From: a bacterium
Lineage (GTDB): Bacteria; Patescibacteriota; Patescibacteriia; Magasanikbacterales; GWA2-37-8
Length of the DNA stretch: 62,881 bases
Reading direction: 5' to 3'
Assembly: GCA_043821725.1 (NCBI GenBank)
Contig: JBDRCM010000012.1
Coordinates: forward strand, 1-62,881
Position 1 is the first letter of the stretch, and the number at the start of each line of letters is the position of its first letter. Position numbers and translations under genes: made by a program. The notes under the pieces are model-generated. The model was not told the DNA's origin, searched no databases, and saw only the letters and a program-made list of their open reading frames with translations. Shown here in pieces: positions 1-62,881 of the stretch.

Positions 1-186
1 GACAGGCAGAAAAACGATCAGGATGACAGGCAGAAAAACGATCAGGATGACAGGCAGAAAAACGATCAGGATGACAGGCAGAAAAACGATCAGGATGACA
101 GGCAGAAAAACGATCAGGATGACAGGCAGAAAAACGCTCAGGATGACAGGCAGAAAAACGCTCAGGATGACAGGCAGAAAAACGCT
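1..186. repeat. 24-bp tandem repeat array, unit GACAGGCAGAAAAACGATCAGGAT. There are 5 identical copies, then 2 copies with CGATC->CGCTC, then a partial copy. The array is cut by the window edge.
   Basis: Direct reading: identical units at 1-24, 25-48, 49-72, 73-96 and 97-120; variants at 121-144 and 145-168; partial copy at 169-186. Several frames are open on both strands, so coding status is unresolved. Confidence 0.95.
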
Positions 187-272
187 TGTTATTTGGCTAA
201 TAATAGCACATTATATTGAATAACTTACAATGAGTTCAATCAGTACTCATCAAATAACACCATTTAAACTTT

Positions 273-3109: not shown

Positions 3110-5095
3110 TTACTTTGCGCATCTTGATATTCCTTTTATATATGATCTGATATATGATTCAGCGCCTGCGACTGCCGCACATCTTAATCCTTTTCTCGTA
3201 CCATCAAAGCATACGCCAATTCGACCCTCTGGACGCGGATTAGGTACAATACAGCCTCCAACAGTGGTTTGGCAACATAAATATGAGCCACCGGGGCAAC
3301 CGCCACCAAAGTCATGTTTTGTAGTTGGAAGCGCCCAAGCATTTGGCGGAATGCAAGATGCTTTTATTAGATAGTCAACACTGACGCCTGATTTTAATTT
3401 CGACAGCAATTCCTCTTCGTTAAATTTTTCTGGCACGCATCTTTTGACTTTTAAGTATAAGTTATAAGAACCTGATCCCATGCCGTAGGCCGAAGCTGCA
3501 GATATCGGATTTGCAGTTTTCTTTGCCCATGTTCTTATTATCGCGGCAACAATAAGATTACCTTCAGCGTCATTTAGGAGCCAGTTACCTATGTCTTGGT
3601 CGGAAGCGCCTAAAGCAGGGCATTCTGGGCATTTTTTTGAGTGTTTATTAATTAGTTGTTCGCGTTGAGAAGCTGTATTAAGTATACCTTTTGCGTTACT
3701 TAAACTAACCTGCCCTAGTCCATAACAACAACCGGTTCTTGCTGTTGGATTCCAACCAGATTCTTTGCCGAGCTGAACGGCAAATAGGCAACCATTGAAG
3801 CCAAATTTATCTGCAATTTCATTTGCGAGTTTTTCATATATTGCATTACTTTTATAATCGTATGTAATTCCTGATACGCCTTCAAAATCGGGCATTTCGG
3901 CTTCTGCAATAAATTTTATCTTCAATGCTTTAAATTCAACAAGATCAGGGTTGATATTATATAGTAGAGCATAAGAGCCCCATGCGATTACAAGACCGAT
4001 GAATATCTGACCAATTTTTTTATACGCGCCTTGCGTTGTTTGCTTTTGATCGCCTTCGCCTTTTGTAATCCAGCCCTGGCCTGTAAGTATTACAATCCCC
4101 TGCATTAATATCATAAGCACGGCAACAATGCTTACAGCCACCATGCTAAATTTGTATAAAGCTGTAATATATTGACCGATCCAAGGGATGTGGATATAGC
4201 CCTCCGAATCCAATGTATTTTTTAAATCAGTTAAGGTCAAGCCGGGTATGCGGATACTTAACTTTGGTTGTTGTAAATCAAGAGTGAGCTTTGTGCCAAG
4301 CAGTGTTGGGGCGCCTTCATACGCCGATAGTGCATCTCCGGCCAGATAACATTTTTTATTAGGAAGATCACATAATGATTTGGAAAGATTACTGCCCATG
4401 GCGCTACATTCTTTGTCAGTGTTGCAATTTCCAACTAATTTAAAACATTCATCTTTAATACATCTTTGGCCTATAGCGCAAGTTTTTGTTCCGCATTTTT
4501 CCAGACTTTCAATATATGGACACTCTAACAATGCAGTGCAGTCTTTGGACACTTTTGTATAAACTTCCGATCCACTTTTATCATATGTGCTACAATTAGT
4601 ATGCGTCCACGCTGTTTTGCATCCAATAGTTGTTTTAGTTGTTCCTCCAACCATGGTGCCAACACAACAGAGTCCTGTTATTGTGGAGCCACCGCTCGTA
4701 GCAGGAGGAGCTGTACCCGGAATTATTTTTTCACATAAGTTTGTCGCAAACTTACATTCTTCATTTACTGAACAGTCTTCATTAGAAGCACAGGTACACT
4801 TTTTTTCTTTTGCGTCATAACCATGTTTGCATCCTGTAGCCTCGCATTGCCCGCTGGTTGTGTCGCATTTTCCGCTTGTGCATTCGCTATTGCTTTTGCA
4901 TTTGGTGTTGCAAATCTTATTTATGGAATCGCAGATTAAATTTGGCACACTATTGCACTCCGAATCATTGGTACAATTTTCTCCAACATTTTTTGCAACT
5001 GTATTTGAAGGCGAAAAAATATTAAAAAAACAGGCGAACAACACGACTACTATCATGATTTTGAATGCCTTTATCATAATTCTATTCTTCAACAA
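3110..5095 (-). CDS. exported cysteine-rich membrane protein with a lytic transglycosylase (SLT-like) domain
   Basis: 661 aa. N-terminal signal anchor, then a Cys-rich region with C-x2-[DNS]-x-[DE]-C modules (CTNDSEC, CKSNSEC, CASNEDC, CNTDKEC). Two central TM helices follow, then the GKESGWNP...YGLGQV motif typical of SLT catalytic domains, then a Cys-rich C-terminus. Confidence 0.7.
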   Translation of the reverse strand: MLKNRIMIKAFKIMIVVVLFACFFNIFSPSNTVAKNVGENCTNDSECNSVPNLICDSINKICNTKCKSNSECTSGKCDTTSGQCEATGCKHGYDAKEKKCTCASNEDCSVNEECKFATNLCEKIIPGTAPPATSGGSTITGLCCVGTMVGGTTKTTIGCKTAWTHTNCSTYDKSGSEVYTKVSKDCTALLECPYIESLEKCGTKTCAIGQRCIKDECFKLVGNCNTDKECSAMGSNLSKSLCDLPNKKCYLAGDALSAYEGAPTLLGTKLTLDLQQPKLSIRIPGLTLTDLKNTLDSEGYIHIPWIGQYITALYKFSMVAVSIVAVLMILMQGIVILTGQGWITKGEGDQKQTTQGAYKKIGQIFIGLVIAWGSYALLYNINPDLVEFKALKIKFIAEAEMPDFEGVSGITYDYKSNAIYEKLANEIADKFGFNGCLFAVQLGKESGWNPTARTGCCYGLGQVSLSNAKGILNTASQREQLINKHSKKCPECPALGASDQDIGNWLLNDAEGNLIVAAIIRTWAKKTANPISAASAYGMGSGSYNLYLKVKRCVPEKFNEEELLSKLKSGVSVDYLIKASCIPPNAWALPTTKHDFGGGCPGGSYLCCQTTVGGCIVPNPRPEGRIGVCFDGTRKGLRCAAVAGAESYIRSYIKGISRCAK

Positions 5096-5750
5096 ACTGT
5101 TTTAAAACATCAGTGAGCTTTATTTCTTCCTGCAAATTTACCCATTTGTTATTTATAAACAAAGTGGGAACACTTCTTATATCAAGTTGCCTTGCCGCAA
5201 TAGTGGAAGATGCAAGCCGTTCCAGCGAGTCAGTTGAATTTACACATGCCCACCATCTTGCCGTGTCAAGATTTAGCGATTGAGCCGTCTTTTTCATTTC
5301 ATCAATGGCAGTATATTTTCTGCTTTGTATGGTAGAGCTTATAAACTGCCAGAATTTTCCCTGATCATGCGCACAAAAAGCGGCTTGATGCTGGATTGTA
5401 TATGGATCGCTGATTATTTTTGGCATTACAATGCTTTTCCATATTATTCGCATCTTTGTTGGATTTGCTTTTACAAAATCAACAAGCGTATTATGAAGCT
5501 CCAAGCATTTTTTGCAGTCAAAATCAATGAATTCAACCGCTGTAATCGGCGCGCCCGGATTTCCATAAATCGGGTCGCTCGCATCGAGTGAGATATTAAA
5601 TGATACAGAGGATACCACAGGCGTGTAGGTTTTTTTAACTGTAATTGAAGATGTAAGCTTAACTTCTTTAATCAAAAGAAATAAAATTATGCCGATGACA
5701 ATTACAAGTATAAGATAAAGTTTTTTATGCCCGCTGTTTGTTGTTGACAT
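5082..5750 (-). CDS. DsbA-like thiol:disulfide oxidoreductase, membrane anchored
   Basis: 222 aa. N-terminal TM helix and thioredoxin-fold CxxC (FDCKKC). The ORF overlaps the start of the downstream Cys-rich gene by 14 nt. Confidence 0.75.
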   Translation of the reverse strand: MSTTNSGHKKLYLILVIVIGIILFLLIKEVKLTSSITVKKTYTPVVSSVSFNISLDASDPIYGNPGAPITAVEFIDFDCKKCLELHNTLVDFVKANPTKMRIIWKSIVMPKIISDPYTIQHQAAFCAHDQGKFWQFISSTIQSRKYTAIDEMKKTAQSLNLDTARWWACVNSTDSLERLASSTIAARQLDIRSVPTLFINNKWVNLQEEIKLTDVLKQFVEE

Positions 5751-34466: not shown

Positions 34467-34477
34467 TTTTATTGAAA

Positions 34478-51210: not shown

Positions 51211-51828
51211 ATGATTGAATATTTAACGCAAAAGCAAATTGATTTGGCTGTTGAAAAAATCCAAAACGGCAAAATTTTGATTTTTCCAACTGAAACATCA
51301 TACGGCATTGGGTGCGACGCAACCAATCAATCGGCAGTCAATAAAATTTTTAAAATTAAAAAACGCGATATTGGTAAGCCGTTTCCAATAATAGTTAACA
51401 GCATTGCCAAAGCGCGCGAATATTTGCAGTGGAGCGACTTGCTTGATAAAATTGCAAAAAAATATTGGCCTGGAGCCCTTACTATTGTGGCGCAATGCCG
51501 TTCTGCAAAGCCGAAACTGGCAAAAGGAGTTGTTTCAGAGCAGGGGACGGTTGCCATTCGCGTCACAAGCGGTAAATTCGCAAGTCAATTATGTAAAATG
51601 ACCAATGTGCCCATAGTTGCCACTTCAGCGAATATCAGCGGACGCAATGAAATATATTCCATACAACAAATAAAAAAAGTTTTTTCAGATTTGGATTTTT
51701 TGCCTGATGCTATTTTTGATGCTGGTGATTTGCCTGCAAATTTGCCAAGCACCATAATTGCCGTTGCAAACAACAAGGTTGAATTATTAAGGCAGGGGGA
51801 TGTTATTATCCAAACAAAGAGGAAATGA
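51211..51828 (+). CDS. tsaC: L-threonylcarbamoyladenylate synthase (Sua5/YrdC/TsaC)
   Basis: About 205 aa from ATG 51211. FPTETSYGIGCDA, KKRDIGKPFPII, WPGALTIV and SANISG motifs. Confidence 0.88.
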   Translation: MIEYLTQKQIDLAVEKIQNGKILIFPTETSYGIGCDATNQSAVNKIFKIKKRDIGKPFPIIVNSIAKAREYLQWSDLLDKIAKKYWPGALTIVAQCRSAKPKLAKGVVSEQGTVAIRVTSGKFASQLCKMTNVPIVATSANISGRNEIYSIQQIKKVFSDLDFLPDAIFDAGDLPANLPSTIIAVANNKVELLRQGDVIIQTKRK

Positions 51829-52979
51829 AAAAACATAATATCAATCCGTATTTATCAATATTAATTGTTGCGTTCGCAGCTTGTTTTTGCGCTGTCATTA
51901 TTTATTCCCAGGTAATATCATCATCAGCGGATTTTGAATGGCTTGGATCTGAAAGTCAAATTGTTTCGCTTGCTTTGAACAAAAAAATTATTCAATCTAG
52001 AAAGCCGGATCCGATTAAAGTCAAAGGTTTGTATTTGACCGCCTATTCAGCCGGGAACAACGCGAAAATGAATGAAATAATATCTTTAATACAAGCCACA
52101 GAGCTTAACAGCGTTGTTATTGACATTAAGGATTACAGCGGATATGTGCTGTATGATTCGTCTTTGGCTTTAGTAAGCGAGCTTGGCTTAAAATCCCAAA
52201 GGATAAGCGATCTGCCATTGCTCTTGAAGACATTAAAGAAAAATAATATATATACTATTGCGCGGGTGAGTGTTTTTCAAGATCCTCTTCTTGCTTCAAA
52301 AAAACCAGAGTGGGCCATTAAATCAAAGCGCGGTGGATTATGGCGCGACCGCAAAGGACTGGCTTGGGTTGATCCGAGCTCTAAAGATGTTTGGGACTAT
52401 AATATAAGCATTGCAATTGAGGCCTCGTCAGCCGGATTTGATGAAATAAATTTTGACTACATAAGGTTTCCAACCGACGGACCTTTGGCTGATATAATTT
52501 ATTCAAATGACAACAAGAAAAAAAGATATGAAGTTATTGAGGATTTTTTTAAATATCTGTCAGTAAGGATGGCCGGACAGCGCGCATATATTTCAGCGGA
52601 TTTATTCGGACTTACAACAGAGCGTGGAGGGGAGGACGACATGATGATCGGCCAGCGGCTTGAAGACGCAGTCAAGTATTTTGATTATGTTTGTCCAATG
52701 GTATATCCGTCGCATTACCCGCCCGGCTATATGAATTTTAATAATCCCGCAGATCATCCTTATGAAGTGGTTTATCGCGCTATGAGTTCAGGTCAAAAAA
52801 AAGCTGATGGCAAGCGGGCTCAATTGCGAGCATGGATTCAGTCATTTGATTTGGGCGCTGTTTATGACGGCCAGAAAATTAAGGCGCAAATTGATGCGTC
52901 TGATGATGCTGGCGCAAACGGGTGGATATTGTGGAACGCGCGCAACTATTACAACAATCGCGGGTTGGCTGATGCTTAA
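51825..52979 (+). CDS. DUF4015-like putative glycoside hydrolase (TIM-barrel), N-terminally anchored
   Basis: 384 aa. N-terminal TM helix. VKGLYLTAYSAG...VVIDIKDYSG...DEINFDYIRFP pattern recalled from that family. Confidence 0.55.
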   Translation: MKKHNINPYLSILIVAFAACFCAVIIYSQVISSSADFEWLGSESQIVSLALNKKIIQSRKPDPIKVKGLYLTAYSAGNNAKMNEIISLIQATELNSVVIDIKDYSGYVLYDSSLALVSELGLKSQRISDLPLLLKTLKKNNIYTIARVSVFQDPLLASKKPEWAIKSKRGGLWRDRKGLAWVDPSSKDVWDYNISIAIEASSAGFDEINFDYIRFPTDGPLADIIYSNDNKKKRYEVIEDFFKYLSVRMAGQRAYISADLFGLTTERGGEDDMMIGQRLEDAVKYFDYVCPMVYPSHYPPGYMNFNNPADHPYEVVYRAMSSGQKKADGKRAQLRAWIQSFDLGAVYDGQKIKAQIDASDDAGANGWILWNARNYYNNRGLADA

Positions 52980-53829
52980 ACATTTTTTTATGCTTACAAT
53001 TCCTGAAGTAAAACAACTTTGCGCTCAATACAAGTTAAAGCCGTCAAAAAACCGAGGACAGAATTTTTTAATAAATGAAATGCCTATTGAAAAAATGATA
53101 AGCGCCTGTGAAATTACAAAATCCGATACAGTTGTTGAAATAGGGCCGGGCTTTGGGGCGTTGACTCTTGCGCTGGCAAAAAAAGCAAAAAAGGTTATTG
53201 CATTTGAAGTTGAAAAAAAATTGCAAAATTACTGGGACGAATTGTTGTTTGAAAAATCGTCTTCAAATAATATTGAAATAATCTGGCAAGACGCGCTGGC
53301 TGTACTTGCAAAAAATAACAATATAAATTTGCCTTCCAGCTACAAGGTAGTTGCCAACCTTCCTTACCAAATTACTTCACCAATAATCCGCACTTTTTTG
53401 GAATCAGGCAAAAAACCAAAATCAATGACCATTATGGTGCAAAAAGAAGTGGCTGAAAGAATATGCGCCAGTCCGCCAAATATGTCTTTGCTGTCAGTGG
53501 CTGTCCAATTTTATTCCAATGCCAAAATAGTGGTTAATGCGCCGAAAACATTTTTTTGGCCTCAGCCCAAAGTTGATTCTGCTGTAATCAAATTGGATAA
53601 TATTCAAAAAAAGCATAATATTGATGAAAAAAAGTTTTTCAAAGTGGTTAGGGCCGGGTTTGCCAACAAGCGAAAAAAATTATCAAGCAACTTATCCGGC
53701 TTGTTAAATATTTACGATAAATCAATTGTTTCAAGCGCTTTTGAAAAAGCCAAGCTCAACGCTAATGTTCGCGCTCAAGAATTATCTGTGGAACAATGGA
53801 TTGAACTTGTTATCCACAGTGGCGTTTAA
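52972..53829 (+). CDS. rsmA: 16S rRNA (adenine1518/1519-N6)-dimethyltransferase
   Basis: GQNFL, EIGPGFGALT SAM motif and VANLPYQITS. Start at ATG 52972 or 52990. The upstream part of ORF 52807-53829 overlaps the preceding gene and is discounted. Confidence 0.9.
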   Translation: MLKHFFMLTIPEVKQLCAQYKLKPSKNRGQNFLINEMPIEKMISACEITKSDTVVEIGPGFGALTLALAKKAKKVIAFEVEKKLQNYWDELLFEKSSSNNIEIIWQDALAVLAKNNNINLPSSYKVVANLPYQITSPIIRTFLESGKKPKSMTIMVQKEVAERICASPPNMSLLSVAVQFYSNAKIVVNAPKTFFWPQPKVDSAVIKLDNIQKKHNIDEKKFFKVVRAGFANKRKKLSSNLSGLLNIYDKSIVSSAFEKAKLNANVRAQELSVEQWIELVIHSGV

Positions 53830-53868: not shown

Positions 53869-54507
53869 ATGGAGCAACAAGAACATCTAAAGCTGAAGCC
53901 CGAGCAAAAGATAGGATTTTTTTTATTGCTTGTTTTTGGCACTCTTTCCCTTGGGCTCGGCGTTCTGCATATCCGCAACACAATGTACAGGCCATTTGCT
54001 CTTAACAATTCTGTACCGCCTTTGTCAACAACAATCACGCAGGACCAATCGCATTTACGATTTCGCGATACTGACAATGACGCTGTAAATGATTTTGATG
54101 AACTGTATGTATATAAGACATCGCCATACCTTGCCGATACTGACTCAGACGGCATAACCGACGGCCAAGAAATAAATAACAATTCAGACCCTCTTTGTCC
54201 GCAAGGCCAGAGTTGCTCTAATTTTAACGCCAATGTTTCAATAGCGCCAACAAGTTCGTCTTACGCGATTTCCGCTTTGGGTGAGCCTCCAACAACCACT
54301 CTGCCTTTAGATCTTAACTCTGCATTAAGCGATCCGCAACAAGTAAGACAGCTTTTGCTTTCAGCCGGAATGGATCCATCTGCTTTAAGTGCGATTTCAG
54401 ATGTTGACCTTATGGCTTCAGTGAGCTCAATAATGCAGAGCAACAGCTTGAACTCAATGATTAACGCGAATAATGCGACTAATACTCATACTACAAGCAC
54501 TTCATAA
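53869..54507 (+). CDS. membrane-anchored protein with thrombospondin type-3-like Ca-binding repeats
   Basis: 212 aa. TM helix IGFFLLLVFGTLSLGLGVL, then DTDNDAVNDFDE and DTDSDGITDGQE (DxDxDGxxDxxE-type), then an S/T/N-rich tail. Confidence 0.7.
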   Translation: MEQQEHLKLKPEQKIGFFLLLVFGTLSLGLGVLHIRNTMYRPFALNNSVPPLSTTITQDQSHLRFRDTDNDAVNDFDELYVYKTSPYLADTDSDGITDGQEINNNSDPLCPQGQSCSNFNANVSIAPTSSSYAISALGEPPTTTLPLDLNSALSDPQQVRQLLLSAGMDPSALSAISDVDLMASVSSIMQSNSLNSMINANNATNTHTTSTS

Positions 54508-54509
54508 AT

Positions 54510-57500
54510 ATGCTTTTAAAATATAAAAAAATCGTGTTAAGCGGGTTGCTCGGTTTTTTTGTTATTGCCACACTGGCTGGATCAGTGCTTTTTTGGATTA
54601 GGCCGTCAAAGGCATTTCCTGTTGAAATAACAGCTGATCTTCCAAATGTGACGGATAAAATTTTGGATCAAGTTAAGCAAGGGCTTGAAGTGGCGGTTAT
54701 GAACGCAGCAATTGAGATGCTTTCATATTTTACCCGCAAGGTTGCCTATGATTCAGCCGTATGGCTTGCGGCCGGCGGAAAAGGTGAAAGCGCTTTGATT
54801 TTTCAAGATGGATTTGATGAATATTTGTCAGATACGGTAGATGAAGCTGCTGGTAAAGCCATTGAAGAGCTTGGAAAGCCGTTTGGATTGAATTTGTGCA
54901 ATATACCTGATGTTAATATTGACTTGGCTTTTAGGGTTGGCTTGCAGAAAAAATATAATCCTGTTTCCAAGCCGGCTTGCACGTTTAATAAATTCAAAGA
55001 AAATTGGAGCGCTGATAATTTTAATTCAAAATATTCAGGTCAAGCCCTTGAAGACAGATTTAACGCATCAATTAGCGCTGATGACAGCGATCTTGGTTTG
55101 TATCTTTCCGCAACAGACAAAATAGATAACTTAATTTCTCAAAAAAATGCGGCTGCAACCTTGGAGCGCCAGGAAGGCGGAGGAGTGAAAGGAATTGAAA
55201 AAGTGATTTCTGGCGACATTTTAACTCCGGCTCAGGTTGTGCAGGAAGAAACAAAGAAATTGGGGCCAAGCAAACAACAAGAATCATCTGAAGGGAAAGT
55301 GGGCAGTATAATGGGCGCTGGCTTATTTGAAGTTATTCCTTCAACTTTATCAACATTTTTAAATACTTTTCTTGGAGAAATGATGAACAACTTCCTTACC
55401 AAGGGAATGTTGCCGTTTGGAATCGGATATGATGATGGAAGTGGTTATTCCTCAACTGTAATGTCTTATGGAGCCGCAGGAACGGTTGGAAATAGAAGGT
55501 CTGCGGAAAAAATATTCGGCGAACTTTTAATGCCAAAGCCAAAAGCAATTGACAGATACAATATAATTACGCAGTTCAACAGTTGCCCTTCTTCTCCGGG
55601 TCAGGACAACTGCATAATGGATGAACAGCTTGTTGCCGCAGTGCAGGAAGAGCGATATGGAAAGCCGATTACAATAGGAGAAGCTATGGATAAAAATTGG
55701 TTGAAAGGAAAGTATAAGCTTGTTCCGCCGGTAAATACAACTGACAATACTGATAAAACATGCTATCAGCGTGCTTACTGCTATTCAAATATAGTTAAGA
55801 TGAGAAAGGCCGGCATACTTCCTCTAGGGTTTGAAATTGCTGCTCTTAACAGCAATCCTGATACCCCTTGGACTTTGGAGCAGGTTGTAAAGGGGTTTAC
55901 TGATTGCAATTTTGCGGGTGATGGTATAACGGTAATTGATGACCCTGTTAACAAACCGTTTTGCCATTTGATTGATCCAAATTGGGTGCTTAAGGCGCCT
56001 CTTTCAAGATGCAATGCAATGGCATATACAAATAATCTGCTTTCATCAGCAGGCCCTGACAGGCAGGAAGAATGCGTTGATATGTCAAGTTGCGTTGGAT
56101 TTGACTCAAAAGGCAATTGCATTGCTTACGGATACTGCACACGCTATCAAAACACATGGCGCTTTGATGCTGACAAATGTTCAGAGCAGTTTGATTCGTG
56201 CGTTTCTTTTAAGGACAGCAGTAACCAAAATGTAAGTTATCTTTACAGAACTTTAGAAACTTATGGATGCAATGAAAAAAATATTGGCTGTTCATCCTAT
56301 TCTCTAAGGCAGGATTCAAACGGCAAATGGATGGAATACTCAAATAGCGAGCTTGAGGATCTTAGAAAAGGATATGTTGACAATTTGTCTGTAATACATT
56401 TTAACAAAAATGTTTCGCAGAGCTGTACAGGAAGCAATTCTGCCGGTTGTTCCGCGTTTAGAATCAATCCTCTTCCATCGCGCGGAAAAAATCTATTTTT
56501 GTATTTGACTAAAGCGCCTGACTACTTAAACTGCTATGACGCTGACAATTCCAAACAAGGAGTTCAATGGCCGAATGTAAAAGCTGATTTTGTCCGCCTT
56601 AATCCAGCAAAGGACTGTTCAAACTATGCAAGTCCGTGCATACCTGATGAAGTCAATTGCGATCTATATTCTGAAGTCAATGGCTCATCAGTGGATATTC
56701 CGGGAAAATACAAGCCAGCTGAAATTAAAATAGATTCTCAAACATCTGTTGCAATAAAAGTATGGAATGATGAATGCGACGCATCATGCGTTGGGTATGA
56801 TTCGTATAAAGAAATGGATAGTAATTATTCCAATGGCGTTGATTTGGCATATATTATTCCAACAACCTTGGCATCTTGTTCATCAAAGGAAGATGGATGC
56901 TCCAGCTTTACAAATTTGAGTACAACAACTGCCGGTCTTGAAAAAGTAGAATATTATACTTATGTAAGGCCGTGCATTAAGCCGGATAAAAATAAACAAA
57001 AAGTTTTTTATACCTATGAAGGGTCTTCTCAAGGAGGATACCAATTAAAGGTCTATACTTTAGAGCAGGCAAGCGATGGTAGTCCACAGCAGTTCTACCG
57101 CACATTGGCTGAAAAGCAATTACTGGATCAGACATGCACTGTTGACCTTTACAAAGCAGGCAAAGCTCCGGCTGATTGCAGGCAGTTTAATGATGATCAA
57201 GGAAAAGTTTTTTACAAGCATCGTTCAAGAACAATCATAGTTGATAATGCGTGCGTTGATTTTCGGTTGAATGATACAGAATTGTATAGAGAAACAACAT
57301 ACGATAATAATCAAGCCGGATGCGAGGCACAGAATGGGCAGTACAAAAACAATCAATGCTATTTGTGTTTTCAACAAGGTAAATTTGACAATGGAAGTTG
57401 CTTTTATCAAGGACTACCGTCTGGGGTTTTAAACAATGCAGGCAACAGTATTGCTTGCGACTCTTCAGTAAAGTCATGCAGGGGCTATAAAGGAAATAAC

Positions 57501-60500
57501 GCAAACACAGTACGAAATGTATCGCTTAATTCAGCGAACGCCACATCATTGAATTTTGAGGACAGTTCAACCACGCTTGCTTTGGAAAATTGGAAAGACA
57601 ACTTAACTTTTGGCCAGCTTGCTGTTTCAGCTGAAGCAACCTATGTTGGCGGGCATTCTCTTTCATATAGCACTCCATCCAGCAGAGGATCGTTTGCAAA
57701 AAATGATCTTTCAATGTATCCAAATTGGAGCTATACAATCTCGTTTTGGGCAAAAGCAAATACCAACCGCACTGTGAGCGTGGAAATGAAGAACGATGCA
57801 AATGTAATTTTAGGTAATGTCACTCTTACAACCGATTGGAATCTCTATAAGCTAGGACCTATTGCTCTTAAAGGCACAACAACCTCAACACAATTAATTT
57901 TTTCTTACGGAGATCCAAGCAATACAGGCACTACAATATATTTGGATAACTTAAATATAATTGAAGTAATAGGGCAAGTATATTTGGTAAAGGAAAAGCT
58001 TAACGTTCCTATGGCATGCGACAGTGTTCAAACTGACAATCTTCCGGGAGAGGGGCTTGGATGCACTGCTTATAAAAATCTGCGCAATAACACAGTATAT
58101 TTAACCGGCTTTTCCAACTTGTGTAGGGAAGGCGCAATTGGGTGCACTGCTTTGTATGACACATTCAATACGCCTGAAGATCCATATCCTTCAGTACATA
58201 ATGTATGGATGGATGCGAAAGGAGCCAGTCCAATTGACTTAACACTAACATTACCTGGAAATTTTTCAGCAAAATGTTCAGTGGCAAAAGACGCTAAGGG
58301 ATGTTATGTTGACGTAAGTAGTTATTCTTATAGTGGCACAGATTTGATTGATGATATATTAAAAGCAGGAGGTGCGCTTACCACTTCATCTGTATATATT
58401 GCGCCTGACACGCCATCATCAACACCTATTTATTTGATTGCAAATAAAAGCGCCACATGCAACGAGCTTGATCTTGGGTGCGTTTATGCTGGGAAAAAGC
58501 AATTAACTCCATCAGGCGCCACTTTTACCACCGGCTTGATTAAGAATGATCCTTCATCATATTCAAAATCGCTTTGCACTAATGAAGAAGTTGGATGCAA
58601 TTCATACAGTTCAGAACAGGGCAACATATATTTTAAAGATCCTTTAATAACAGGCCAGCAAGTTTGCAAATATCTTACAGATGTTTCAATTAGCGGGAAG
58701 AAGTATTCCGGATGGTTCTGGCAGGGAGTTGGAGCATGCGTAAATACATCAACTGCGTCAGCAAGCTCCAACAAAATATGCTCAATTGATAAGGATTGCA
58801 ATACAGGAGAGACATGCCAGAACAAGGACAAACAGCCGTGCTATCCTGACTATTTACAGGCAAATAATATGTATGGGTTGTGGTCTTATGGCAACAAGGA
58901 TAAATACAAGGGGTTTGTTGGGTCATGTCCGGCTGACCAAAACGGATGCACAGGATTCAGGGATCCAAATGACAATGACAAAACATATTATCTTTTGAAT
59001 AATACTAAAATAACAACGGCTAAGGCGGCGTGCACTGAAGGAGCAAGTTTGGAAAAGGGGTGTGTGCTTTTTGATCAAACATCAATTACAGCAATGAATT
59101 GGAACGCAAAGCTTACCTATGACTTAAGCGCGAAAAATAAATATGATTATGTAAAGCCAGTTTCAAGTTCAACAATAAACAATACAAATATAGTGATGAA
59201 AGTTGTGCGGGATAGAGAATGCGGGGAGTGGATTCAGTGCAGTAAATCACAGAGATATTGGAATTCAATTGAAAGCAAGTTTAAAGAAACATGCGATGTT
59301 GTTGGAAGATGCAATAAAGTTGATCCGTCAGTTGATAAGTCAGATATGACCAACTGTGGGAATTGGATTGAAAATAATCATGCTTATGCCAATAAAACAC
59401 TTGAAGCAACTGACTATCGTTCAAGGCCTGTTGATTGGGCAAGTATGGATTTTAGCGGATACAGCATTCTGGGGATGTATCCATTGGAGGAGCTGGAGCA
59501 GATAAATCTTGGTAATTCAAAAATTCCTGATTGGCGCCTTGTAAAGGTCATTAAAGACCCCAATGATAAGTGCGAGCTGAAGAACACGCTTGATGCAACA
59601 TTATGCGGTAATTATAATGAGGGGATATGTTATAACAAAATTTGTCTTCAAACACCATTTGGCACAAAAAAAGATGTATCGGATATAACAAATTTGTCGC
59701 CTGCGCATGAATGCAGGGCATATCCTGAAAAAAATGCTCCATTTCCAAATACTGAAGCCACGCAAAAATCACAGTCATATGCTAATGCTAACTTTTGCTC
59801 TGAAAATCCTCTGCCAAGCTCTATTAGAAGCATTTATAACGCATGCGAATGCGACTATGCAAAAGTGCAGTATGGAGACAATGCAACGACATATTGGAAC
59901 TATTATAATCCAAATTCAAGCGGGGATTTGGTTTGGTATAACAGTATATTTGGTCTAGATATGAATGCTCCAAAAGGAGTGCCCATAGGGGTTTGTTATG
60001 GTACAAAAGGACTAATATACGATGGAAATTATTGCACAATGGATGCAGATTGCAAAAAGCTAAGTAGCAGTGATCCGGGCCAGTGCTTGTTTGCCAGGCA
60101 AGAAGATAAGTTCGTTGGCTGGCGTGGATTCTGTTTGGAACATGACACTTCGCGGTCTTTGAACGCACAACAGCGTCTAAATCCGTGCTTAACTTGGTAT
60201 CCTGTTGACAATATTACAGGGGCTATTGATATAACATCAAATCCCGAAGCAGGATATCAAGTAAAACAGTATGGCGCGTATTATTGCGCCAATGCTGTTG
60301 GAAATTATCGTTTCTATAGCGATGATTATGAAAAAGTTTATAAACTGCTTGTTCAGGAATTGAAAGATATTGACGCGCACTGTTATAGTCATTCTGCTTA
60401 CTCCTATCCAGTATACTGCAATGGATATCAGTCTGGCGGTTATTGCCATCATGATGAAAGTAAGTATTTATATAAGTGCTATGATGTAAAAATAGAAACA

Positions 60501-62881
60501 ATAGAAAAATACCAAAAAATATTTGGAGGATTAAAAGGGAATAATAAAATTTCAGGAGACGAAGATGGGACGCAATTTCCTCTGGTCAGTGCTTCAATCA
60601 GCCCACCACCGCCCACACCTCCATATTTTTATGATTTTCCTTATCTGGTAACTCTTACGCCAAAAGCTACTCAAGATAATGATTCAAAATACATGAGACC
60701 TAAGAACAAGAGCTTCTTTTATCTTGAAGGCCTGTATTGGAGCGAAGATGCCTATGTTAATTATTATTTAGCGGACAAGGTGAACAATCAAAGGCCAACA
60801 AATACTGGAGGATTGCAGGTGGGCCATGCTAAAACCACACAACCGTTCATGGACCAATATTTTCATCAATATAGTCCAAAAAATGGTAGTAATTATATAA
60901 AATTAGAATACGATCCTTACCGTACAAGCTATCTACCTGCAAATAGCAATCCATTAGACTCGAACCACCCTATTTATTTAGATGATATTGACATGGTTCG
61001 TATCAGAGTCGGTTCCTGTGTTAAACCGGATATCACCAGTGCAAATAGCGGTCAAAAATGTGTTGATGAGGATTATACAGTGCAGGCCGGCGATTACTAT
61101 ATTAGAAATAGTAGATTAGTGAATAATAATTATGAGGATGTAATTACATGGTATGGTGCAGGTTATGGAGATAAAAATTATAATAATAATAAACCGGGCT
61201 GTGTTGTTGTTACTGGAAGAGAATTTTTAAATTCAAACACTGGCAAGAATGAACGGATACAAGTGGAACCATGCTTGCAAGAATCAACTAATGGGGTATT
61301 TGGCGGTGAAAAGTGGTTGATAGCAAATAATGGAGATACTTATGGAGCGAATAATGATCCTGTTGGTCCAATGATAGCAGAAAGTAGGATTATCAGGAAT
61401 ACAGGATTAAAAGGAAATGAAACAGTTATGCGTTTTATGTTTGATAATAAGAGGTATGTTAGTTTATCCGGAACAGCTGAATATCCGGTTCGGTATATTG
61501 AAAATCGTAATGGCTTTTTTAATCAATATGGAGATAATTTGCGCACAAAGTCAAAAGACGGCGTGGATGATAAGAGCACAGATGAAATGTGTGATAATGG
61601 CGATGAGTCAGGTCAAGATTCATTGGAAGTTATGATCGTGTTTGATTCTCTAGGCAAGTTAACCAAAATATTGGTTGCTTATTGTAGCGCCGGAACAGGT
61701 AACGATGACGAACCATCTCTTCAAAATATACATATAGATGCCATATTGAAAGAAAATTGTAATTTAATAGCTGATGTTGCAAGCAATAATATGAATGTTG
61801 CATATACTGACAATTTGTGGAAGACAGGAATTAAAGCGTTTACTTATGATAAAACTACACCGGCTATTCCATTTGGATCTTTGGATATAACAGAAAATCC
61901 TACAAGCAAGAAATATACATTAGATGATATGGGTTTGTTTATACAGGATTCACCTTTTGTGTCGCCAAAATATAATAGAAAACCGACAAGGATTGGAGCT
62001 CCTTATGGTTGTGAAAAAGATTGCGGAGGTATCCTTGCTTATAATGAAACAAAATTGAATTTTGAACAAAAATCTGAAGTGAACAAAGATGGATATCAAT
62101 TAGGACGCGAGAATATAGGAGCGAATTTATTTGCGAAAAGCAACAGCATGTTCTATTATAATAGGTCTTTATCGTCGTTTACAGAGATAAAAAGTATTGG
62201 TGATCTTAAGGTCAACCAACAGGGAAATTCCAACTTCAATTATACCGAAGGCCCAAATTCCACTCAACCTATTTATTGGACTGCCCCGCGCGTTCGCTCT
62301 GTTGATATTAACAATTGTTCATCTGTTGGAACTTGCCTTGAAGGAAAAGACGATACAATAACTATAAATAATCAAAGCGGGGGCGATATTGTATTAACCA
62401 AATATCCTGCAAAAGCAACCATGAAATTTTATATGCTTGCCGACAAAAATCACATGCCAATTAAGAAAGTAACAGTTGATTGGGGAGATAATAGTGGCAA
62501 AGTTATAAAGGGCGATGGAATAACATCAAGCTATCGCAATCATAGGGGATTGACTGATGCTGTATGCAAAAAACCTCAAATTGCTACAGATAAAGTATGC
62601 TTTGTAAAATCAGATGACTGGAGTGTAAGCCAAGGCGCTTATGAAACTAAAATGACCACCCAGAAATGTAATTCAGACGCTGATTGCAAATTATTGGATA
62701 TATGCAAAATGGAAAGCAAAGCTCTTAACTGGGGTGAAATAATTGATAGAGCATGCAATGCAAGCTATATACAATTCACAGGCACATATAATTGCAAGGC
62801 AGACAGCAAAAATAAATATTATCACAGTGATTCAATGGACTGCGGTCTTGACACAGCCACTCAATCAGAATTTCCTGATGG
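54510..62881 (+). CDS. giant cysteine-rich surface protein, 5' part only (more than 2,790 codons, open at the window end)
   Basis: Hand translation from ATG 54510 found no stop codon up to the window edge. N-terminal anchor MLLKYKKIVLSGLLGFFVIATLAGSVLFWI. It is absent from the ORF track, presumably because no stop lies within the window. All annotated ORFs in these 8.4 kb are short and out of frame. Confidence 0.85.
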   Translation, partial: MLLKYKKIVLSGLLGFFVIATLAGSVLFWIRPSKAFPVEITADLPNVTDKILDQVKQGLEVAVMNAAIEMLSYFTRKVAYDSAVWLAAGGKGESALIFQDGFDEYLSDTVDEAAGKAIEELGKPFGLNLCNIPDVNIDLAFRVGLQKKYNPVSKPACTFNKFKENWSADNFNSKYSGQALEDRFNASISADDSDLGLYLSATDKIDNLISQKNAAATLERQEGGGVKGIEKVISGDILTPAQVVQEETKKLGPSKQQESSEGKVGSIMGAGLFEVIPSTLSTFLNTFLGEMMNNFLTKGMLPFGIGYDDGSGYSSTVMSYGAAGTVGNRRSAEKIFGELLMPKPKAIDRYNIITQFNSCPSSPGQDNCIMDEQLVAAVQEERYGKPITIGEAMDKNWLKGKYKLVPPVNTTDNTDKTCYQRAYCYSNIVKMRKAGILPLGFEIAALNSNPDTPWTLEQVVKGFTDCNFAGDGITVIDDPVNKPFCHLIDPNWVLKAPLSRCNAMAYTNNLLSSAGPDRQEECVDMSSCVGFDSKGNCIAYGYCTRYQNTWRFDADKCSEQFDSCVSFKDSSNQNVSYLYRTLETYGCNEKNIGCSSYSLRQDSNGKWMEYSNSELEDLRKGYVDNLSVIHFNKNVSQSCTGSNSAGCSAFRINPLPSRGKNLFLYLTKAPDYLNCYDADNSKQGVQWPNVKADFVRLNPAKDCSNYASPCIPDEVNCDLYSEVNGSSVDIPGKYKPAEIKIDSQTSVAIKVWNDECDASCVGYDSYKEMDSNYSNGVDLAYIIPTTLASCSSKEDGCSSFTNLSTTTAGLEKVEYYTYVRPCIKPDKNKQKVFYTYEGSSQGGYQLKVYTLEQASDGSPQQFYRTLAEKQLLDQTCTVDLYKAGKAPADCRQFNDDQGKVFYKHRSRTIIVDNACVDFRLNDTELYRETTYDNNQAGCEAQNGQYKNNQCYLCFQQGKFDNGSCFYQGLPSGVLNNAGNSIACDSSVKSCRGYKGNNANTVRNVSLNSANATSLNFEDSSTTLALENWKDNLTFGQLAVSAEATYVGGHSLSYSTPSSRGSFAKNDLSMYPNWSYTISFWAKANTNRTVSVEMKNDANVILGNVTLTTDWNLYKLGPIALKGTTTSTQLIFSYGDPSNTGTTIYLDNLNIIEVIGQVYLVKEKLNVPMACDSVQTDNLPGEGLGCTAYKNLRNNTVYLTGFSNLCREGAIGCTALYDTFNTPEDPYPSVHNVWMDAKGASPIDLTLTLPGNFSAKCSVAKDAKGCYVDVSSYSYSGTDLIDDILKAGGALTTSSVYIAPDTPSSTPIYLIANKSATCNELDLGCVYAGKKQLTPSGATFTTGLIKNDPSSYSKSLCTNEEVGCNSYSSEQGNIYFKDPLITGQQVCKYLTDVSISGKKYSGWFWQGVGACVNTSTASASSNKICSIDKDCNTGETCQNKDKQPCYPDYLQANNMYGLWSYGNKDKYKGFVGSCPADQNGCTGFRDPNDNDKTYYLLNNTKITTAKAACTEGASLEKGCVLFDQTSITAMNWNAKLTYDLSAKNKYDYVKPVSSSTINNTNIVMKVVRDRECGEWIQCSKSQRYWNSIESKFKETCDVVGRCNKVDPSVDKSDMTNCGNWIENNHAYANKTLEATDYRSRPVDWASMDFSGYSILGMYPLEELEQINLGNSKIPDWRLVKVIKDPNDKCELKNTLDATLCGNYNEGICYNKICLQTPFGTKKDVSDITNLSPAHECRAYPEKNAPFPNTEATQKSQSYANANFCSENPLPSSIRSIYNACECDYAKVQYGDNATTYWNYYNPNSSGDLVWYNSIFGLDMNAPKGVPIGVCYGTKGLIYDGNYCTMDADCKKLSSSDPGQCLFARQEDKFVGWRGFCLEHDTSRSLNAQQRLNPCLTWYPVDNITGAIDITSNPEAGYQVKQYGAYYCANAVGNYRFYSDDYEKVYKLLVQELKDIDAHCYSHSAYSYPVYCNGYQSGGYCHHDESKYLYKCYDVKIETIEKYQKIFGGLKGNNKISGDEDGTQFPLVSASISPPPPTPPYFYDFPYLVTLTPKATQDNDSKYMRPKNKSFFYLEGLYWSEDAYVNYYLADKVNNQRPTNTGGLQVGHAKTTQPFMDQYFHQYSPKNGSNYIKLEYDPYRTSYLPANSNPLDSNHPIYLDDIDMVRIRVGSCVKPDITSANSGQKCVDEDYTVQAGDYYIRNSRLVNNNYEDVITWYGAGYGDKNYNNNKPGCVVVTGREFLNSNTGKNERIQVEPCLQESTNGVFGGEKWLIANNGDTYGANNDPVGPMIAESRIIRNTGLKGNETVMRFMFDNKRYVSLSGTAEYPVRYIENRNGFFNQYGDNLRTKSKDGVDDKSTDEMCDNGDESGQDSLEVMIVFDSLGKLTKILVAYCSAGTGNDDEPSLQNIHIDAILKENCNLIADVASNNMNVAYTDNLWKTGIKAFTYDKTTPAIPFGSLDITENPTSKKYTLDDMGLFIQDSPFVSPKYNRKPTRIGAPYGCEKDCGGILAYNETKLNFEQKSEVNKDGYQLGRENIGANLFAKSNSMFYYNRSLSSFTEIKSIGDLKVNQQGNSNFNYTEGPNSTQPIYWTAPRVRSVDINNCSSVGTCLEGKDDTITINNQSGGDIVLTKYPAKATMKFYMLADKNHMPIKKVTVDWGDNSGKVIKGDGITSSYRNHRGLTDAVCKKPQIATDKVCFVKSDDWSVSQGAYETKMTTQKCNSDADCKLLDICKMESKALNWGEIIDRACNASYIQFTGTYNCKADSKNKYYHSDSMDCGLDTATQSEFPD

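What the first reader, a model, noticed from the sequence alone, without database searches (positions are those of the whole stretch)
54510..62881. Giant open-ended ORF missing from the ORF track: an anchored, cysteine-rich surface protein of more than 2,790 aa
The last 8.4 kb of the window has no long ORF in the supplied track, although the rest of the window is almost fully coding. I read the + strand from the ATG at 54510, which lies 2 nt after the stop of the preceding gene, and found an uninterrupted frame to position 62881. The track probably drops ORFs that have no in-window stop.

The product starts with a single hydrophobic anchor. The rest is hydrophilic and rich in N, Y, D, K and especially Cys, often as closely spaced pairs (for example CVDMSSC, CTGSNSAGC, CEAQNGQYKNNQCYLC). 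I recognised no catalytic motif. Only a lectin-like segment and short Cys modules stand out, and these are reported separately.

Proteins of this size and composition in reduced genomes are candidate host-attachment or envelope-scaffold molecules, and they are essentially uncharacterised.
Basis: seen in the sequence. Interest (0 to 1): 0.78.

Follow-up and report, generated by a model that had tools for sequence, protein, structure and literature searches.

The report
Giant secreted cysteine-rich protein beside T4SS
The last 8.4 kb of the window is a real, intact gene, cut off by the contig end, for a ~2,850-residue secreted, disulfide-rich protein; its uncharacterised family occurs in hundreds of Magasanikbacteria-type ultrasmall bacteria, always next to a small membrane protein and usually just upstream of their type IV secretion genes, which makes it a candidate host-contact protein.

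Summary
Window 54510-62881 (+) is one open frame of 2,790 codons with no stop; the other five frames carry 113-315 stops. It runs off the contig about 64 residues before the family's normal end.

It is a genuine, conserved gene. Colinear homologues of 2,500-3,300 aa occur in 260 species-level genomes, nearly all labelled Magasanikbacteria or Patescibacteria. Its N-terminal module is found in 1,597 clusters at 50% identity. All are annotated "hypothetical".

Of its 100 Cys, 89 are conserved. The only recognisable domain is a CBM4/9-type lectin jelly-roll (aa ~1001-1140). A hypervariable segment (aa ~1950-2400) diverges faster than the rest.

The "anchor" looks like a cleavable Sec signal peptide, with a conserved small-x-small/AxA site (SKA|F after residue 35). 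The preceding gene is not rsmA. It is a conserved 212-aa membrane protein with a TSP3 calcium-binding repeat, 2 nt upstream.

In relatives the pair lies upstream of a VirB6/VirB3/TrsD-like/VirB4 cluster, sometimes only 2-161 nt away.

My best reading is an extracellular, disulfide-stapled host-contact or adhesion protein working with the patescibacterial type IV secretion system. That function is inferred, not shown.

The parts
53869..54507 (+). Conserved small partner gene (212 aa): N-terminal TM helix with no AxA site, two TSP3-type Ca-binding D-x-D-x-D-G loops, a Cys pair, and a conserved C-terminal helical stretch. It ends 2 nt before the giant ORF.
   Evidence: Pfam TSP3_bac E=2.9e-5, 24.2 bits, just below the cut-off of 25; 28.1 bits in the L001 orthologue. 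Directly upstream of the giant gene in 77 of 78 loci. Median gap 8 nt, range 1-71, in 68 loci; family consensus.
54510..62881 (+). Giant ORF, 2,790 codons, open to the contig end. About 64 residues (10th-90th percentile 52-92) are missing, so the predicted full length is ~2,850 aa.
   Evidence: no stop; colinear homologues of 2,500-3,300 aa; missing tail estimated from 106 homologues.
54510..54614 (+). Signal peptide (aa 1-35): n-region KYKK, long h-region, c-region RPSKA|F.
   Evidence: Hydrophobic stretch at aa 6-32. Conserved small-x-small/AxA site in 84 of 84 / 65 of 84 unique homologue N-termini. No SignalP-type predictor was available.
54615..55544 (+). Conserved N-terminal region (aa 36-345), predicted helical at low confidence, with only 2 Cys. 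Motifs include RKxAYDSAVWLASGGKGQ and IPxxLSxFLNTL.
   Evidence: Conservation. AF2 gives helices with pLDDT mostly below 50. No PDB sequence match at E<=10.
55545..56039 (+). Most conserved module (aa 346-510), a mixed alpha/beta domain. Invariant residues are C359, C368, C424, N427, R432, P438, G440, E442, A444, L487, P490, W492 and C501.
   Evidence: Highest identity in every divergence bin. AF2 pLDDT 76-91. No Pfam, NCBIfam or PDB sequence match.
56040..57509 (+). Cys-rich beta-rich region 1 (aa 511-1000), with repeated 'aromatic strand ... C-x5-8-[G/K/N]-C-x2-[Y/F]' units.
   Evidence: Motif list; conserved Cys positions; AF2 is confident only for aa ~790-990.
57510..57929 (+). CBM4/9-type (CenC-like) carbohydrate-binding jelly-roll (aa ~1001-1140).
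   Evidence: Pfam PF02018 E=1e-5, 26.4 bits against a cut-off of 25.9. Profile against PDB: laminarinase 16A CBM 1gui E=2.6e-6 and CBM16 modules. Foldseek PDB: CBM4-2, CBM16 and CBM22 at E ~1e-7, TM(target) 0.57-0.67. BFVD: phage tail-fibre CenC-like modules.
57930..60299 (+). Cys-rich region 2 (aa 1141-1930), with further C-x5-8-GC units and invariant motifs such as RDRECGEW, CRAYPE and GWxGYCLE.
   Evidence: NHL beta-propellers are inserted at the position equivalent to aa ~1445-1461 in homologues P0110 and P0113.
60357..61709 (+). Hypervariable segment (aa ~1950-2400). Alignment occupancy is 0.16-0.6 and length in homologues ranges from 31 to 523 aa.
   Evidence: One pair is 92% identical in the core but 68% here; another is 81% against 28%.
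61710..62879 (+). Moderately conserved C-terminal region (aa 2401-2790), truncated by the contig end. It contains KFYxxADxNxMPI...VDWGD and conserved Cys.
   Evidence: AF2 pLDDT 64-88 for aa ~2590-2760. No structural match and no Pfam PKD hit.
52807..53829 (+). rsmA/ksgA (context): a conserved neighbour two genes upstream.
   Evidence: RrnaAD E=1.9e-57. Found ~1.5 kb upstream of the giant gene in 75 of 78 loci.
5082..5750 (-). DsbA-like thioredoxin (supporting context for extracytoplasmic disulfide formation).
   Evidence: Thioredoxin_4 E=8e-16, DSBA E=1e-4.

Best explanation
The ORF encodes the N-terminal ~98% of a ~2,850-aa secreted extracellular protein. It belongs to a large, uncharacterised family found almost entirely in genomes labelled Magasanikbacteria or Patescibacteria.

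Proposed mechanism, step by step:
(1) It is co-transcribed, and probably translationally coupled, with the upstream 212-aa type-II membrane protein. The spacing is shown; coupling is inferred.
(2) It is exported by Sec and its signal peptide is cleaved after Ala35. This is inferred from the conserved AxA-type site.
(3) Its ~90 conserved Cys form roughly 45 disulfides that staple a long, mostly beta, non-repetitive stalk. This is inferred; a DsbA-like gene is present in the window.
(4) The conserved N-terminal 500 residues keep it at the producer's surface, perhaps by Ca-dependent docking to the TSP3 repeat of the small partner or to the large VirB6-like protein. This is speculative.
(5) The CBM4/9 lectin module, the loop sites that accept NHL propellers in some relatives, and the hypervariable segment near the distal end recognise host-cell surface glycans or proteins. 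The domain identity and the variability are shown; the ligand is inferred.
(6) This contact positions or stabilises the adjacent MPF-FATA-like type IV secretion machine (VirB6-like, VirB3/PrgI, TrsD/TraC-like, VirB4) on the host. The synteny is shown in relatives; the functional coupling is inferred. The window ends before the expected position of that cluster.
For: Real, conserved gene: (260 species-level genomes; 1,597 clusters at 50% identity, and in the 150 best matches listed the module lies at the N-terminus, 127 of them proteins of 2,500-3,300 aa and the shorter ones presumably fragments).

Secreted: signal-peptide signature; no second TM segment; 89 of 100 Cys conserved in more than 80% of 116 homologues; DsbA-like gene.

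Binding modules: CBM; NHL propeller insertions; hypervariable segment.

Partner gene.

T4SS linkage in homologous loci:
- Searches show PrgI, TraC-like and DUF87/AAA_10/P-loop_TraG genes downstream; TrbL E=1.7e-6.
- A VirB6-like gene lies downstream on the same strand in 50 of 57 loci with at least 9.5 kb of flank.
- The large downstream ORF follows directly, with gaps of 2-161 nt, in L004, L023, L029, L043 and L084; in L023 its VirB6 identity was not detected by tblastn.
- The block RF1-rsmA-small-giant-T4SS persists while the outer flanks differ.

Literature: the patescibacterial T4SS is MPF-FATA-like, lacks relaxases, is often near ksgA, and 'no adhesins such as PrgB were detected' (PMC12102498). 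The T4SS and predicted adhesins are essential in a cultivated Saccharibacterium, and the role of its T4SS is unknown (PMC11665869).
Against: The T4SS genes are not in this window, so the link rests on relatives at 30-50% identity.

Synteny within one lineage is weak functional evidence. Unrelated housekeeping genes (RF1, Sua5, rsmA) are equally syntenic.

In most loci one to three small genes, often on the opposite strand, separate the giant gene from the VirB6-like gene.

The core of the giant protein diverges about as fast as RsmA (~40-48% identity), so it is not unusually fast-evolving.

No adhesin family (PrgB, Ig-like, LPXTG) is detectable.

The AF2 models are poor (mean pLDDT 58.8 and 53.2), so 'stalk' is not a structural result.

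No signal-peptide predictor and no expression or proteome data were available.
Confidence: 0.5

Rival explanations
1. It is a general envelope or surface-layer scaffold. On this view the secreted, disulfide-rich giant protein coats the ultrasmall cell, or forms its fibrous surface, and has no mechanistic tie to the type IV secretion system. The adjacency is inherited gene order in one lineage.
For: Housekeeping genes are just as syntenic as the T4SS genes. Intervening and opposite-strand genes separate the giant gene from the VirB6-like gene in most loci. The family appears near-universal in this lineage and its core evolves at a housekeeping-like rate. Giant membrane or surface proteins giving a fibrous surface are reported in another CPR bacterium (PMC8080830).
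Against: Classical S-layer proteins are Cys-poor and carry SLH or similar anchoring modules (general knowledge). Here Cys is 3.6% and no such module is found. The small-giant-T4SS order survives rearrangement of the outer flanks and is contiguous in several lineages. The lectin module, propeller insertions and hypervariable segment look more like target recognition.
Confidence: 0.25
2. It is a host-envelope-breaching enzyme. The very conserved aa 346-510 module (invariant E442 and R432, near-invariant H486 and D489) or another unrecognised region would be a new hydrolase that opens the host or producer cell wall. It would substitute for the VirB1-type hydrolase that is rarely found beside patescibacterial virB4, and the CBM would target it to polysaccharide.
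For: CBM4/9 modules usually accompany glycoside hydrolases (family knowledge; hits). VirB1 homologues are mostly not associated with virB4 outside Paceibacteria, and other glycosidases may fill the role (PMC12102498). Conserved acidic and His residues sit in a confidently modelled domain. Giant proteins of predatory Omnitrophota are linked to cell-wall degradation (bioRxiv 10.1101/2023.11.21.568195).
Against: No hydrolase family is detected by Pfam, NCBIfam, PDB profile search or Foldseek in any part of the protein. The invariant residues are not a recognisable catalytic motif. A separate DUF4015 putative glycosyl-hydrolase gene already sits nearby.
Confidence: 0.12
3. It is a membrane-anchored protein. 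The N-terminal hydrophobic segment is an uncleaved signal anchor that tethers the protein to the cytoplasmic membrane.
For: The h-region is long, about 20-23 residues, which is enough to span a membrane. No other retention signal was found.
Against: A small-x-small/AxA motif follows the h-region at a fixed distance in all 84 unique N-termini; conservation like this is expected only if signal peptidase I uses it. Long h-regions are typical of monoderm signal peptides (general knowledge). The adjacent small protein has a TM helix without such a site and could supply the anchor.
Confidence: 0.2
4. It is an assembly artefact, a pseudogene, or several fused smaller genes.
For: None found, apart from the fact that the ORF is truncated by the contig end.
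Against: There are zero stops in 2,790 codons. The alignment to more than 100 full-length homologues from independent assemblies is colinear end to end. No repeats are present and composition is homogeneous.
Confidence: 0.01

Closest known systems
Surface adhesins of monoderm conjugative T4SS (PrgB/aggregation substance and PrgC of pCF10, MPF-FATA class)
   Same: A large secreted surface protein encoded with a Gram-positive-type T4SS (VirB6/PrgH-like, VirB3/PrgI, VirB4/PrgJ-like genes in the homologous loci). The proposed role is the same: establishing contact with the target cell.
   Different: There is no sequence or domain similarity, no LPXTG sortase signal, and no GbpC/Ig-like adhesin domains. 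It is 2-3 times larger, extremely Cys-rich, chromosomal, and sits in a relaxase-less system. The published survey found no PrgB-like adhesins in Patescibacteria (PMC12102498). It is an analogue at most, not a member.
CBM4/CBM9/CBM16/CBM22 carbohydrate-binding modules (Pfam CBM_4_9, 'CenC-like')
   Same: Residues ~1001-1140 match the family HMM just above its threshold, match solved CBM structures by profile, and have the beta-jelly-roll fold.
   Different: The module is 5% of the protein and is attached to no recognisable glycoside hydrolase. Ligand-binding residues and specificity are unknown. In several homologues the Pfam score falls below threshold, and one homologue has an NHL propeller inserted in it.
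Giant surface proteins of other episymbiotic or predatory ultrasmall prokaryotes (e.g. Vampirococcus lugosii, 1,392-4,163 aa; Omnitrophota giant genes beside secretion systems)
   Same: Very large, predicted extracellular proteins in reduced-genome episymbionts, proposed to mediate host recognition or attachment. Some are encoded next to secretion-system genes (PMC8080830; bioRxiv 10.1101/2023.11.21.568195).
   Different: Those proteins are built from recognisable interaction domains (WD40, PKD, integrin, fibronectin, DUF11). This family is largely unrecognisable, non-repetitive and disulfide-rich, and it has a fixed architecture and a fixed genomic position across hundreds of species.
Phage receptor-binding proteins and tail fibres carrying CenC-like modules
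   Same: Foldseek against BFVD returns tail fibre, minor tail and tip attachment proteins through the shared jelly-roll module. Both show a conserved proximal part and a variable distal part.
   Different: Similarity is limited to the ~140-aa jelly-roll. There is no phage context in the window.

Membership tests
Uncharacterised Magasanikbacteria giant-protein family (no Pfam or NCBIfam model; defined here by homology) | Colinear full-length homology with the N-terminal 530-aa module at the N-terminus | tested here: met
   120 listed homologues at 32-50% identity over ~69% of the query in one HSP. tblastn matches span query residues 1 to ~2790. Profile search: the query itself scores E=2.5e-219.
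Uncharacterised Magasanikbacteria giant-protein family | Conserved Cys framework | tested here: met
   89 of the query's 100 Cys lie in columns that are Cys in more than 80% of 116 homologues.
Uncharacterised Magasanikbacteria giant-protein family | Genomic position: rsmA, then small TM/TSP3 gene, then giant gene | tested here: met
   The window has rsmA at 52807-53829, the small gene at 53869-54507 and the giant ORF from 54510. The same order is seen in 75-77 of 78 loci.
Uncharacterised Magasanikbacteria giant-protein family | T4SS gene cluster (VirB6-like ... PrgI, TraC-like, VirB4) downstream | not testable with these tools
   The window ends inside the giant gene. The cluster is present in 50 of 57 homologous loci with enough flank. 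In the closest relative, L006, a 1,312-aa ORF starts 1.45 kb after the giant gene and a 141-aa ORF lies at +9.1 kb; tblastn identifies them as VirB6-like and PrgI-like.
Pfam CBM_4_9 (PF02018) | HMM score at or above the gathering threshold of 25.9 bits | tested here: met
   26.4 bits, E=1e-5, aa 1015-1114. This is marginal. It is supported by the PDB profile hit 1gui at E=2.6e-6 and by Foldseek to CBM4-2/16/22 at E~1e-7.
Pfam CBM_4_9 (PF02018) | Carbohydrate binding (ligand-contacting aromatic or polar residues in the cleft) | not tested
   No ligand-site analysis or binding assay was possible. The model pLDDT for this module is 67-89.
Gram-positive T4SS adhesins (PrgB-like) | LPXTG sortase anchor at the C-terminus | tested here: not met
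   Full-length homologues end in ...(V/I)IVAP(Q/K), with no LPXTG and no C-terminal TM segment. The query's own C-terminus is outside the window.
Gram-positive T4SS adhesins (PrgB-like) | Recognisable adhesin domains (GbpC/polymer-adhesin, Ig-like) | tested here: not met
   No Pfam or NCBIfam hit other than the CBM. There are no PDB sequence hits.
Sec-type cleavable signal peptide | n-region with positive charge, hydrophobic h-region, and small residues at -3 and -1 | tested here: met
   KYKK, then hydrophobic aa 6-32, then S-K-A|F at 33-36. The motif is conserved in 84 of 84 unique homologue N-termini. A trained predictor was not available.
S-layer proteins | SLH or other cell-wall anchoring module; Cys-poor composition | tested here: not met
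   No SLH or similar Pfam hit. Cys is 3.6%.
Rhs/teneurin-type polymorphic toxins | YD/Rhs repeats and a variable extreme C-terminal toxin followed by an immunity gene | tested here: not met
   No RHS/YD Pfam hit. The variable segment is internal and the extreme C-terminus is conserved.
DGR (diversity-generating retroelement) target protein | Template/variable repeat pair and a nearby reverse transcriptase | tested here: not met
   No direct repeat involving the giant gene anywhere in the window. The Pfam-scanned ORFs include no reverse transcriptase.

The most novel reading that the evidence does not exclude
The giant protein and its small Ca-binding membrane partner are integral extracellular parts of the patescibacterial type IV secretion machine. 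On this reading they form a disulfide-stapled stalk or conduit, replacing the missing pilus or adhesin, that bridges the epibiont to its host. The lectin and hypervariable modules would set host range. It would then be the first identified host-contact component of the essential but functionally unexplained CPR T4SS.
Probability: 0.12. Interest if true: 0.85.

Novelty: new variant of a known kind. Interest (0 to 1): 0.55.

Why it matters
Patescibacteria make up a large fraction of bacterial diversity and live attached to host cells. How they recognise and exploit hosts is largely unknown.

Their chromosomal type IV secretion system is essential in the one species tested genetically, and its role is described as completely unknown (PMC11665869). 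The only systematic survey found no adhesin associated with it (PMC12102498).

This work identifies a conserved gene pair: a small Ca-binding membrane protein plus a ~2,850-aa secreted, disulfide-rich protein that carries a lectin module and a hypervariable segment. The pair sits at the upstream edge of the T4SS locus in hundreds of Magasanikbacteria genomes. That gives a concrete, testable candidate for the host-contact element.

It also defines a large protein family (at least 1,000 clusters at 50% identity with E<=1e-30) that has almost no recognisable folds. The family is a target for structure determination and for a new family model in the domain databases.

Tried and rejected
Searches that found nothing beyond the CBM:
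- Pfam on the whole protein at E<=1, and on three homologues at E<=0.1: only CBM_4_9.
- NCBIfam: nothing.
- Profile of 40 full-length homologues against PDB sequences: only CBM modules.
- N-terminal 530-aa profile against PDB at E<=10: no hit.

Structure prediction and fold search:
- AF2 of aa 1-1150 with a 29-sequence alignment gave mean pLDDT 58.8. Only aa 345-510, 790-990 and 1010-1150 are confident.
- Foldseek of that model against PDB and BFVD is dominated by the CBM jelly-roll.
- AF2 of aa 1591-2790 gave mean pLDDT 53.2, and Foldseek found nothing at E<=0.001.

Ideas dropped:
- The C-terminal 'VDWGD' stretch reminded me of a PKD domain. No Pfam or PDB support was found, so I do not claim it.
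- DGR-driven diversification: there is no template/variable repeat pair in the window.
- Tandem or dispersed DNA repeats as a sign of mis-assembly: none.

Searches that did not reach their aim:
- The VirB4 search was meant to reach other CPR classes. Its 120 listed hits were all at least 78% identical, apparently Magasanikbacteria-type proteins, so whether other classes have an analogous giant gene beside their T4SS remains open.
- Literature searches for this family (Magasanikbacteria, Patescibacteria, cysteine-rich, giant, secretion system) found no description of it.
Full report
**1. The observation**

Translating window 54510-62881 on the + strand gives 2,790 sense codons and no stop. The other two + frames of the same stretch contain 147 and 315 stops, and the three - frames contain 113-142. 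An 8.4-kb open frame is therefore far beyond chance.

The previous in-frame stop ends at 54482, and ATG 54510 is the first start codon after it. It lies 2 nt after the stop of ORF 53869-54507. The ORF is missing from mechanical ORF lists only because ORFs that run off the source are not listed.

Cys is 3.6% (100 residues), Asn 8.2%, Tyr 6.1%, and there is one strongly hydrophobic stretch at aa 6-32. The gene contains no tandem or dispersed DNA repeats, and its GC content matches the rest of the window. Nothing points to a chimeric assembly.

**2. It is a conserved gene of a large, unnamed family**

A search of 5.8 billion proteins returned 284 relatives. The best 120 are almost all 2,500-3,100 aa long, 32-50% identical, and named "hypothetical protein". 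Where a taxon is given it is Patescibacteria or Candidatus Magasanikbacteria. UniRef calls one member "CBM-cenC domain-containing protein".

A scan of one genome per GTDB species found 260 species with a relative. The informative record titles are overwhelmingly Magasanikbacteria or Magasanikiibacteriota.

A profile of the N-terminal 530 residues was searched exhaustively against 1.84 billion cluster representatives. It matched 1,597 proteins (1,052 at E<=1e-30). In the 150 best matches listed the module lies at the N-terminus; 127 of them are 2,500-3,300 aa long, and the shorter ones are presumably fragments.

Comparison of the query's last 200 residues with 106 full-length homologues indicates that about 64 residues (10th-90th percentile 52-92) lie beyond the contig end. 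The full protein should therefore be ~2,850 aa. Homologues end in a conserved ...DNWGWCNG.C...(V/I)IVAP(Q/K).

**3. Anatomy**

In an alignment of 116 homologues, residues 1-1930 are well conserved, residues ~1950-2400 are hypervariable, and residues 2400 to the end are moderately conserved. Of the query's 100 Cys, 89 sit in columns that are Cys in more than 80% of sequences, and many are invariant. They often occur as a repeated unit, "aromatic beta-strand ... C-x5-8-[G/K/N]-C-x2-[Y/F]", with ten copies matched by a simple pattern.

The only recognisable domain is a CBM4/9-type jelly-roll at aa ~1001-1140:
- Pfam PF02018 scores 26.4 bits against a threshold of 25.9.
- The family profile matches solved CBMs, with 1gui at E=2.6e-6.
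- The AF2 model matches CBM4-2, CBM16 and CBM22 structures at E~1e-7, and CenC-like modules of phage tail fibres.

Nothing else matches Pfam, NCBIfam or PDB sequences.

The AF2 models were poor overall, with mean pLDDT 58.8 and 53.2. Confident islands are at aa 345-510, 790-990, 1010-1150 and ~2590-2760. The C-terminal half has no structural neighbour.

The hypervariable segment diverges faster than the core at every level of relatedness. One pair is 92% identical in the core and 68% there; another is 81% against 28%. Its length ranges from 31 to 523 aa. Two homologues carry NHL beta-propellers inserted at the position equivalent to aa ~1445-1461, and one of them also has a propeller inside the CBM. 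The scaffold thus tolerates, and evidently exploits, insertion of binding modules.

**4. Secreted rather than anchored**

In all 84 unique family N-termini the hydrophobic stretch is followed by a small-x-small motif. It is a strict A-x-A in 65 of them, at median position 34 (for example ...PAQA|Q and ...PAKA|F). The query has RPSKA|FPVE.

Conservation like this is what a signal peptidase I site looks like, and the long h-region fits monoderm-type signal peptides (general knowledge). There is no second TM segment and no LPXTG in full-length relatives. I therefore read the protein as secreted, with its many conserved Cys forming disulfides outside the cell. A DsbA-like thioredoxin gene is present in the window at 5082-5750. 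No trained signal-peptide predictor was available, so cleavage remains an inference.

**5. Context**

The window is ordinary Patescibacteria chromosome. It encodes RecG, ClpB, PheRS, DnaE, IF-2, LeuRS, ComEC, NusA, YidC, GroEL, RF1, Sua5, a DUF4015 protein and RsmA.

The gene immediately upstream of the giant ORF is not rsmA. It encodes a 212-aa protein with an N-terminal TM helix that lacks a cleavage motif, two TSP3-type Ca-binding loops, a Cys pair and a conserved C-terminal stretch. This small gene directly precedes the giant gene in 77 of 78 homologous loci. The median gap is 8 nt. rsmA lies ~1.5 kb upstream in 75 of 78 loci.

Four annotated loci at 33-44% identity carry the following genes downstream:
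- a 1,050-1,290-aa protein, TrbL/VirB6 in L001 at E=1.7e-6
- two genes of ~300-480 aa
- PrgI (VirB3-like)
- a TraC-like protein
- a DUF87/AAA_10/P-loop_TraG VirB4 ATPase

Across all fetched loci a VirB6-like gene lies downstream on the same strand in 50 of 57 cases with at least 9.5 kb of flank. Most of the remainder have a divergent ORF of 800 aa or more in that position. In L004, L023, L029, L043 and L084 the large downstream ORF follows the giant gene after only 2-161 nt. It is confirmed as VirB6-like by tblastn in four of these, but not in L023. Elsewhere one to three small genes, often on the opposite strand, intervene. The outer flanks differ between genomes while the block RF1...rsmA-small-giant-...-T4SS persists.

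The window ends before this region, so for this genome the cluster is only predicted. In the closest relative, L006, the VirB6-like ORF begins 1.45 kb after the giant gene.

**6. What is known**

A 2025 survey showed that the patescibacterial T4SS is a distinct MPF-FATA-like system. [quoted passage not shown]

In the genetically tractable Saccharibacterium Southlakia, the T4SS and several predicted surface adhesins are essential, and the role of the T4SS is called completely unknown (PMC11665869). A 2026 preprint on a cultivated host-specific ectoparasite reports tubular structures at the host interface that may be T4SS pili (bioRxiv 10.64898/2026.06.21.733656). Giant surface proteins have been proposed as host-attachment factors in another CPR bacterium (PMC8080830).

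I found no paper describing this family.

**7. Interpretation**

What is firmly established:
- The gene is real and lacks only its ~64-residue C-terminal tail, cut off by the contig end.
- The product is extracytoplasmic and disulfide-rich.
- Its architecture is fixed: signal peptide, conserved N-terminal ~500 aa, Cys-rich region, CBM, Cys-rich region, hypervariable segment, conserved C-terminus.
- It is paired with a small membrane protein.
- In relatives it sits next to the T4SS locus.

What is inferred is its function. I propose that it projects from the cell surface and binds host envelope components through the lectin and variable modules. This would help the T4SS-like machine engage the host. 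Docking to the small partner or to the VirB6-like protein is speculative.

The main caveats are these. Synteny inside one lineage also links unrelated housekeeping genes. The giant protein's core evolves at about the rate of RsmA, ~40-48% identity across the loci, whereas VirB4 is ~80% identical. The structure models are weak.

The rival readings are a general envelope scaffold, a novel wall-breaching enzyme, and a true membrane anchor. They are scored separately in this report. An assembly or pseudogene artefact is effectively excluded.

**8. Verdict**

The "anchor" is most likely a cleaved signal peptide, and the reference to rsmA was imprecise.

The added value from this stage is threefold: the size and uniformity of the family, the conserved partner gene, and the T4SS neighbourhood. 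I rate it as a new variant of a known kind, namely giant secreted adhesin-like proteins of episymbionts. Interest is moderate: it is a concrete candidate for an open question, but its function rests on context.

Noticed in passing
window 34463-37591 (+): The leucyl-tRNA synthetase (1,042 aa) carries an inserted alpha/beta-hydrolase domain (Ser_hydrolase PF06821, E=4e-18) at aa 488-671. It lies between the editing domain and the C-terminal catalytic and anticodon-binding parts, which is an unusual insertion for LeuRS.
   Followed up: no
window 1-208 (+): A perfect 24-nt tandem repeat (GACAGGCAGAAAAACGATCAGGAT, ~8 copies) sits at the very start of the contig. It may be why the assembly broke there.
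   Followed up: no
window 7067-8785 (-), repeats at 7685-8349: A 572-aa ORF with no Pfam hit contains a long low-complexity, imperfectly repeated stretch (15 overlapping 56-nt copies). It is flanked by two further ORFs with no Pfam match: 5810-7036 (408 aa) and 3110-5095 (661 aa).
   Followed up: no
window 5082-5750 (-): A DsbA-like thioredoxin (Thioredoxin_4, E=8e-16). It is consistent with an extracytoplasmic disulfide-forming system that could serve Cys-rich secreted proteins such as the giant one.
   Followed up: partly
window 51825-52979 and 52807-53829 (+): The longest rsmA ORF overlaps the preceding DUF4015 (putative glycosyl hydrolase) gene by 173 nt. The RrnaAD match starts only at aa 81, so the true rsmA start is probably further downstream.
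   Followed up: no
window 841-2985 (+) and 37785-39329 (+): RecG and ComEC genes lie in the same window. The T4SS survey notes that ABY1-class T4SS loci commonly sit near competence and recombination genes.
   Followed up: no
L001 18624-20576 (-): In one relative, a 650-aa Cys-rich protein with Stig1 (E=9e-10) and MopE-type metal-binding motifs is encoded on the opposite strand between the giant gene and the T4SS cluster.
   Followed up: no
L005 2821-3177 and 26627-26989: Two bAvd / 23S_rRNA_IVP-type genes (accessory proteins of diversity-generating retroelements) lie near the giant-T4SS locus of a Magasanikbacteria genome. No DGR template/variable repeat pair was found in the present window.
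   Followed up: partly
loci L001-L085 (T4SS genes downstream of the giant gene): Within this lineage VirB4 is ~80% identical, the TraC-like protein ~72% and PrgI ~68%. The VirB6-like protein (~44%), the two ~300-aa cluster proteins (33-37%), the giant protein and its small partner (~40-45%) diverge much more. This looks like a split between cytoplasmic or membrane-core parts and exposed parts.
   Followed up: partly
L052 (record titled Methanoregula sp.), L022 (Udaeobacter sp.), many 'uncultured Gammaproteobacteria' records: Several contigs that carry the giant gene with typical Magasanikbacteria synteny are deposited under unrelated organism names. These are probably mis-binned contigs or placeholder labels.
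   Followed up: no
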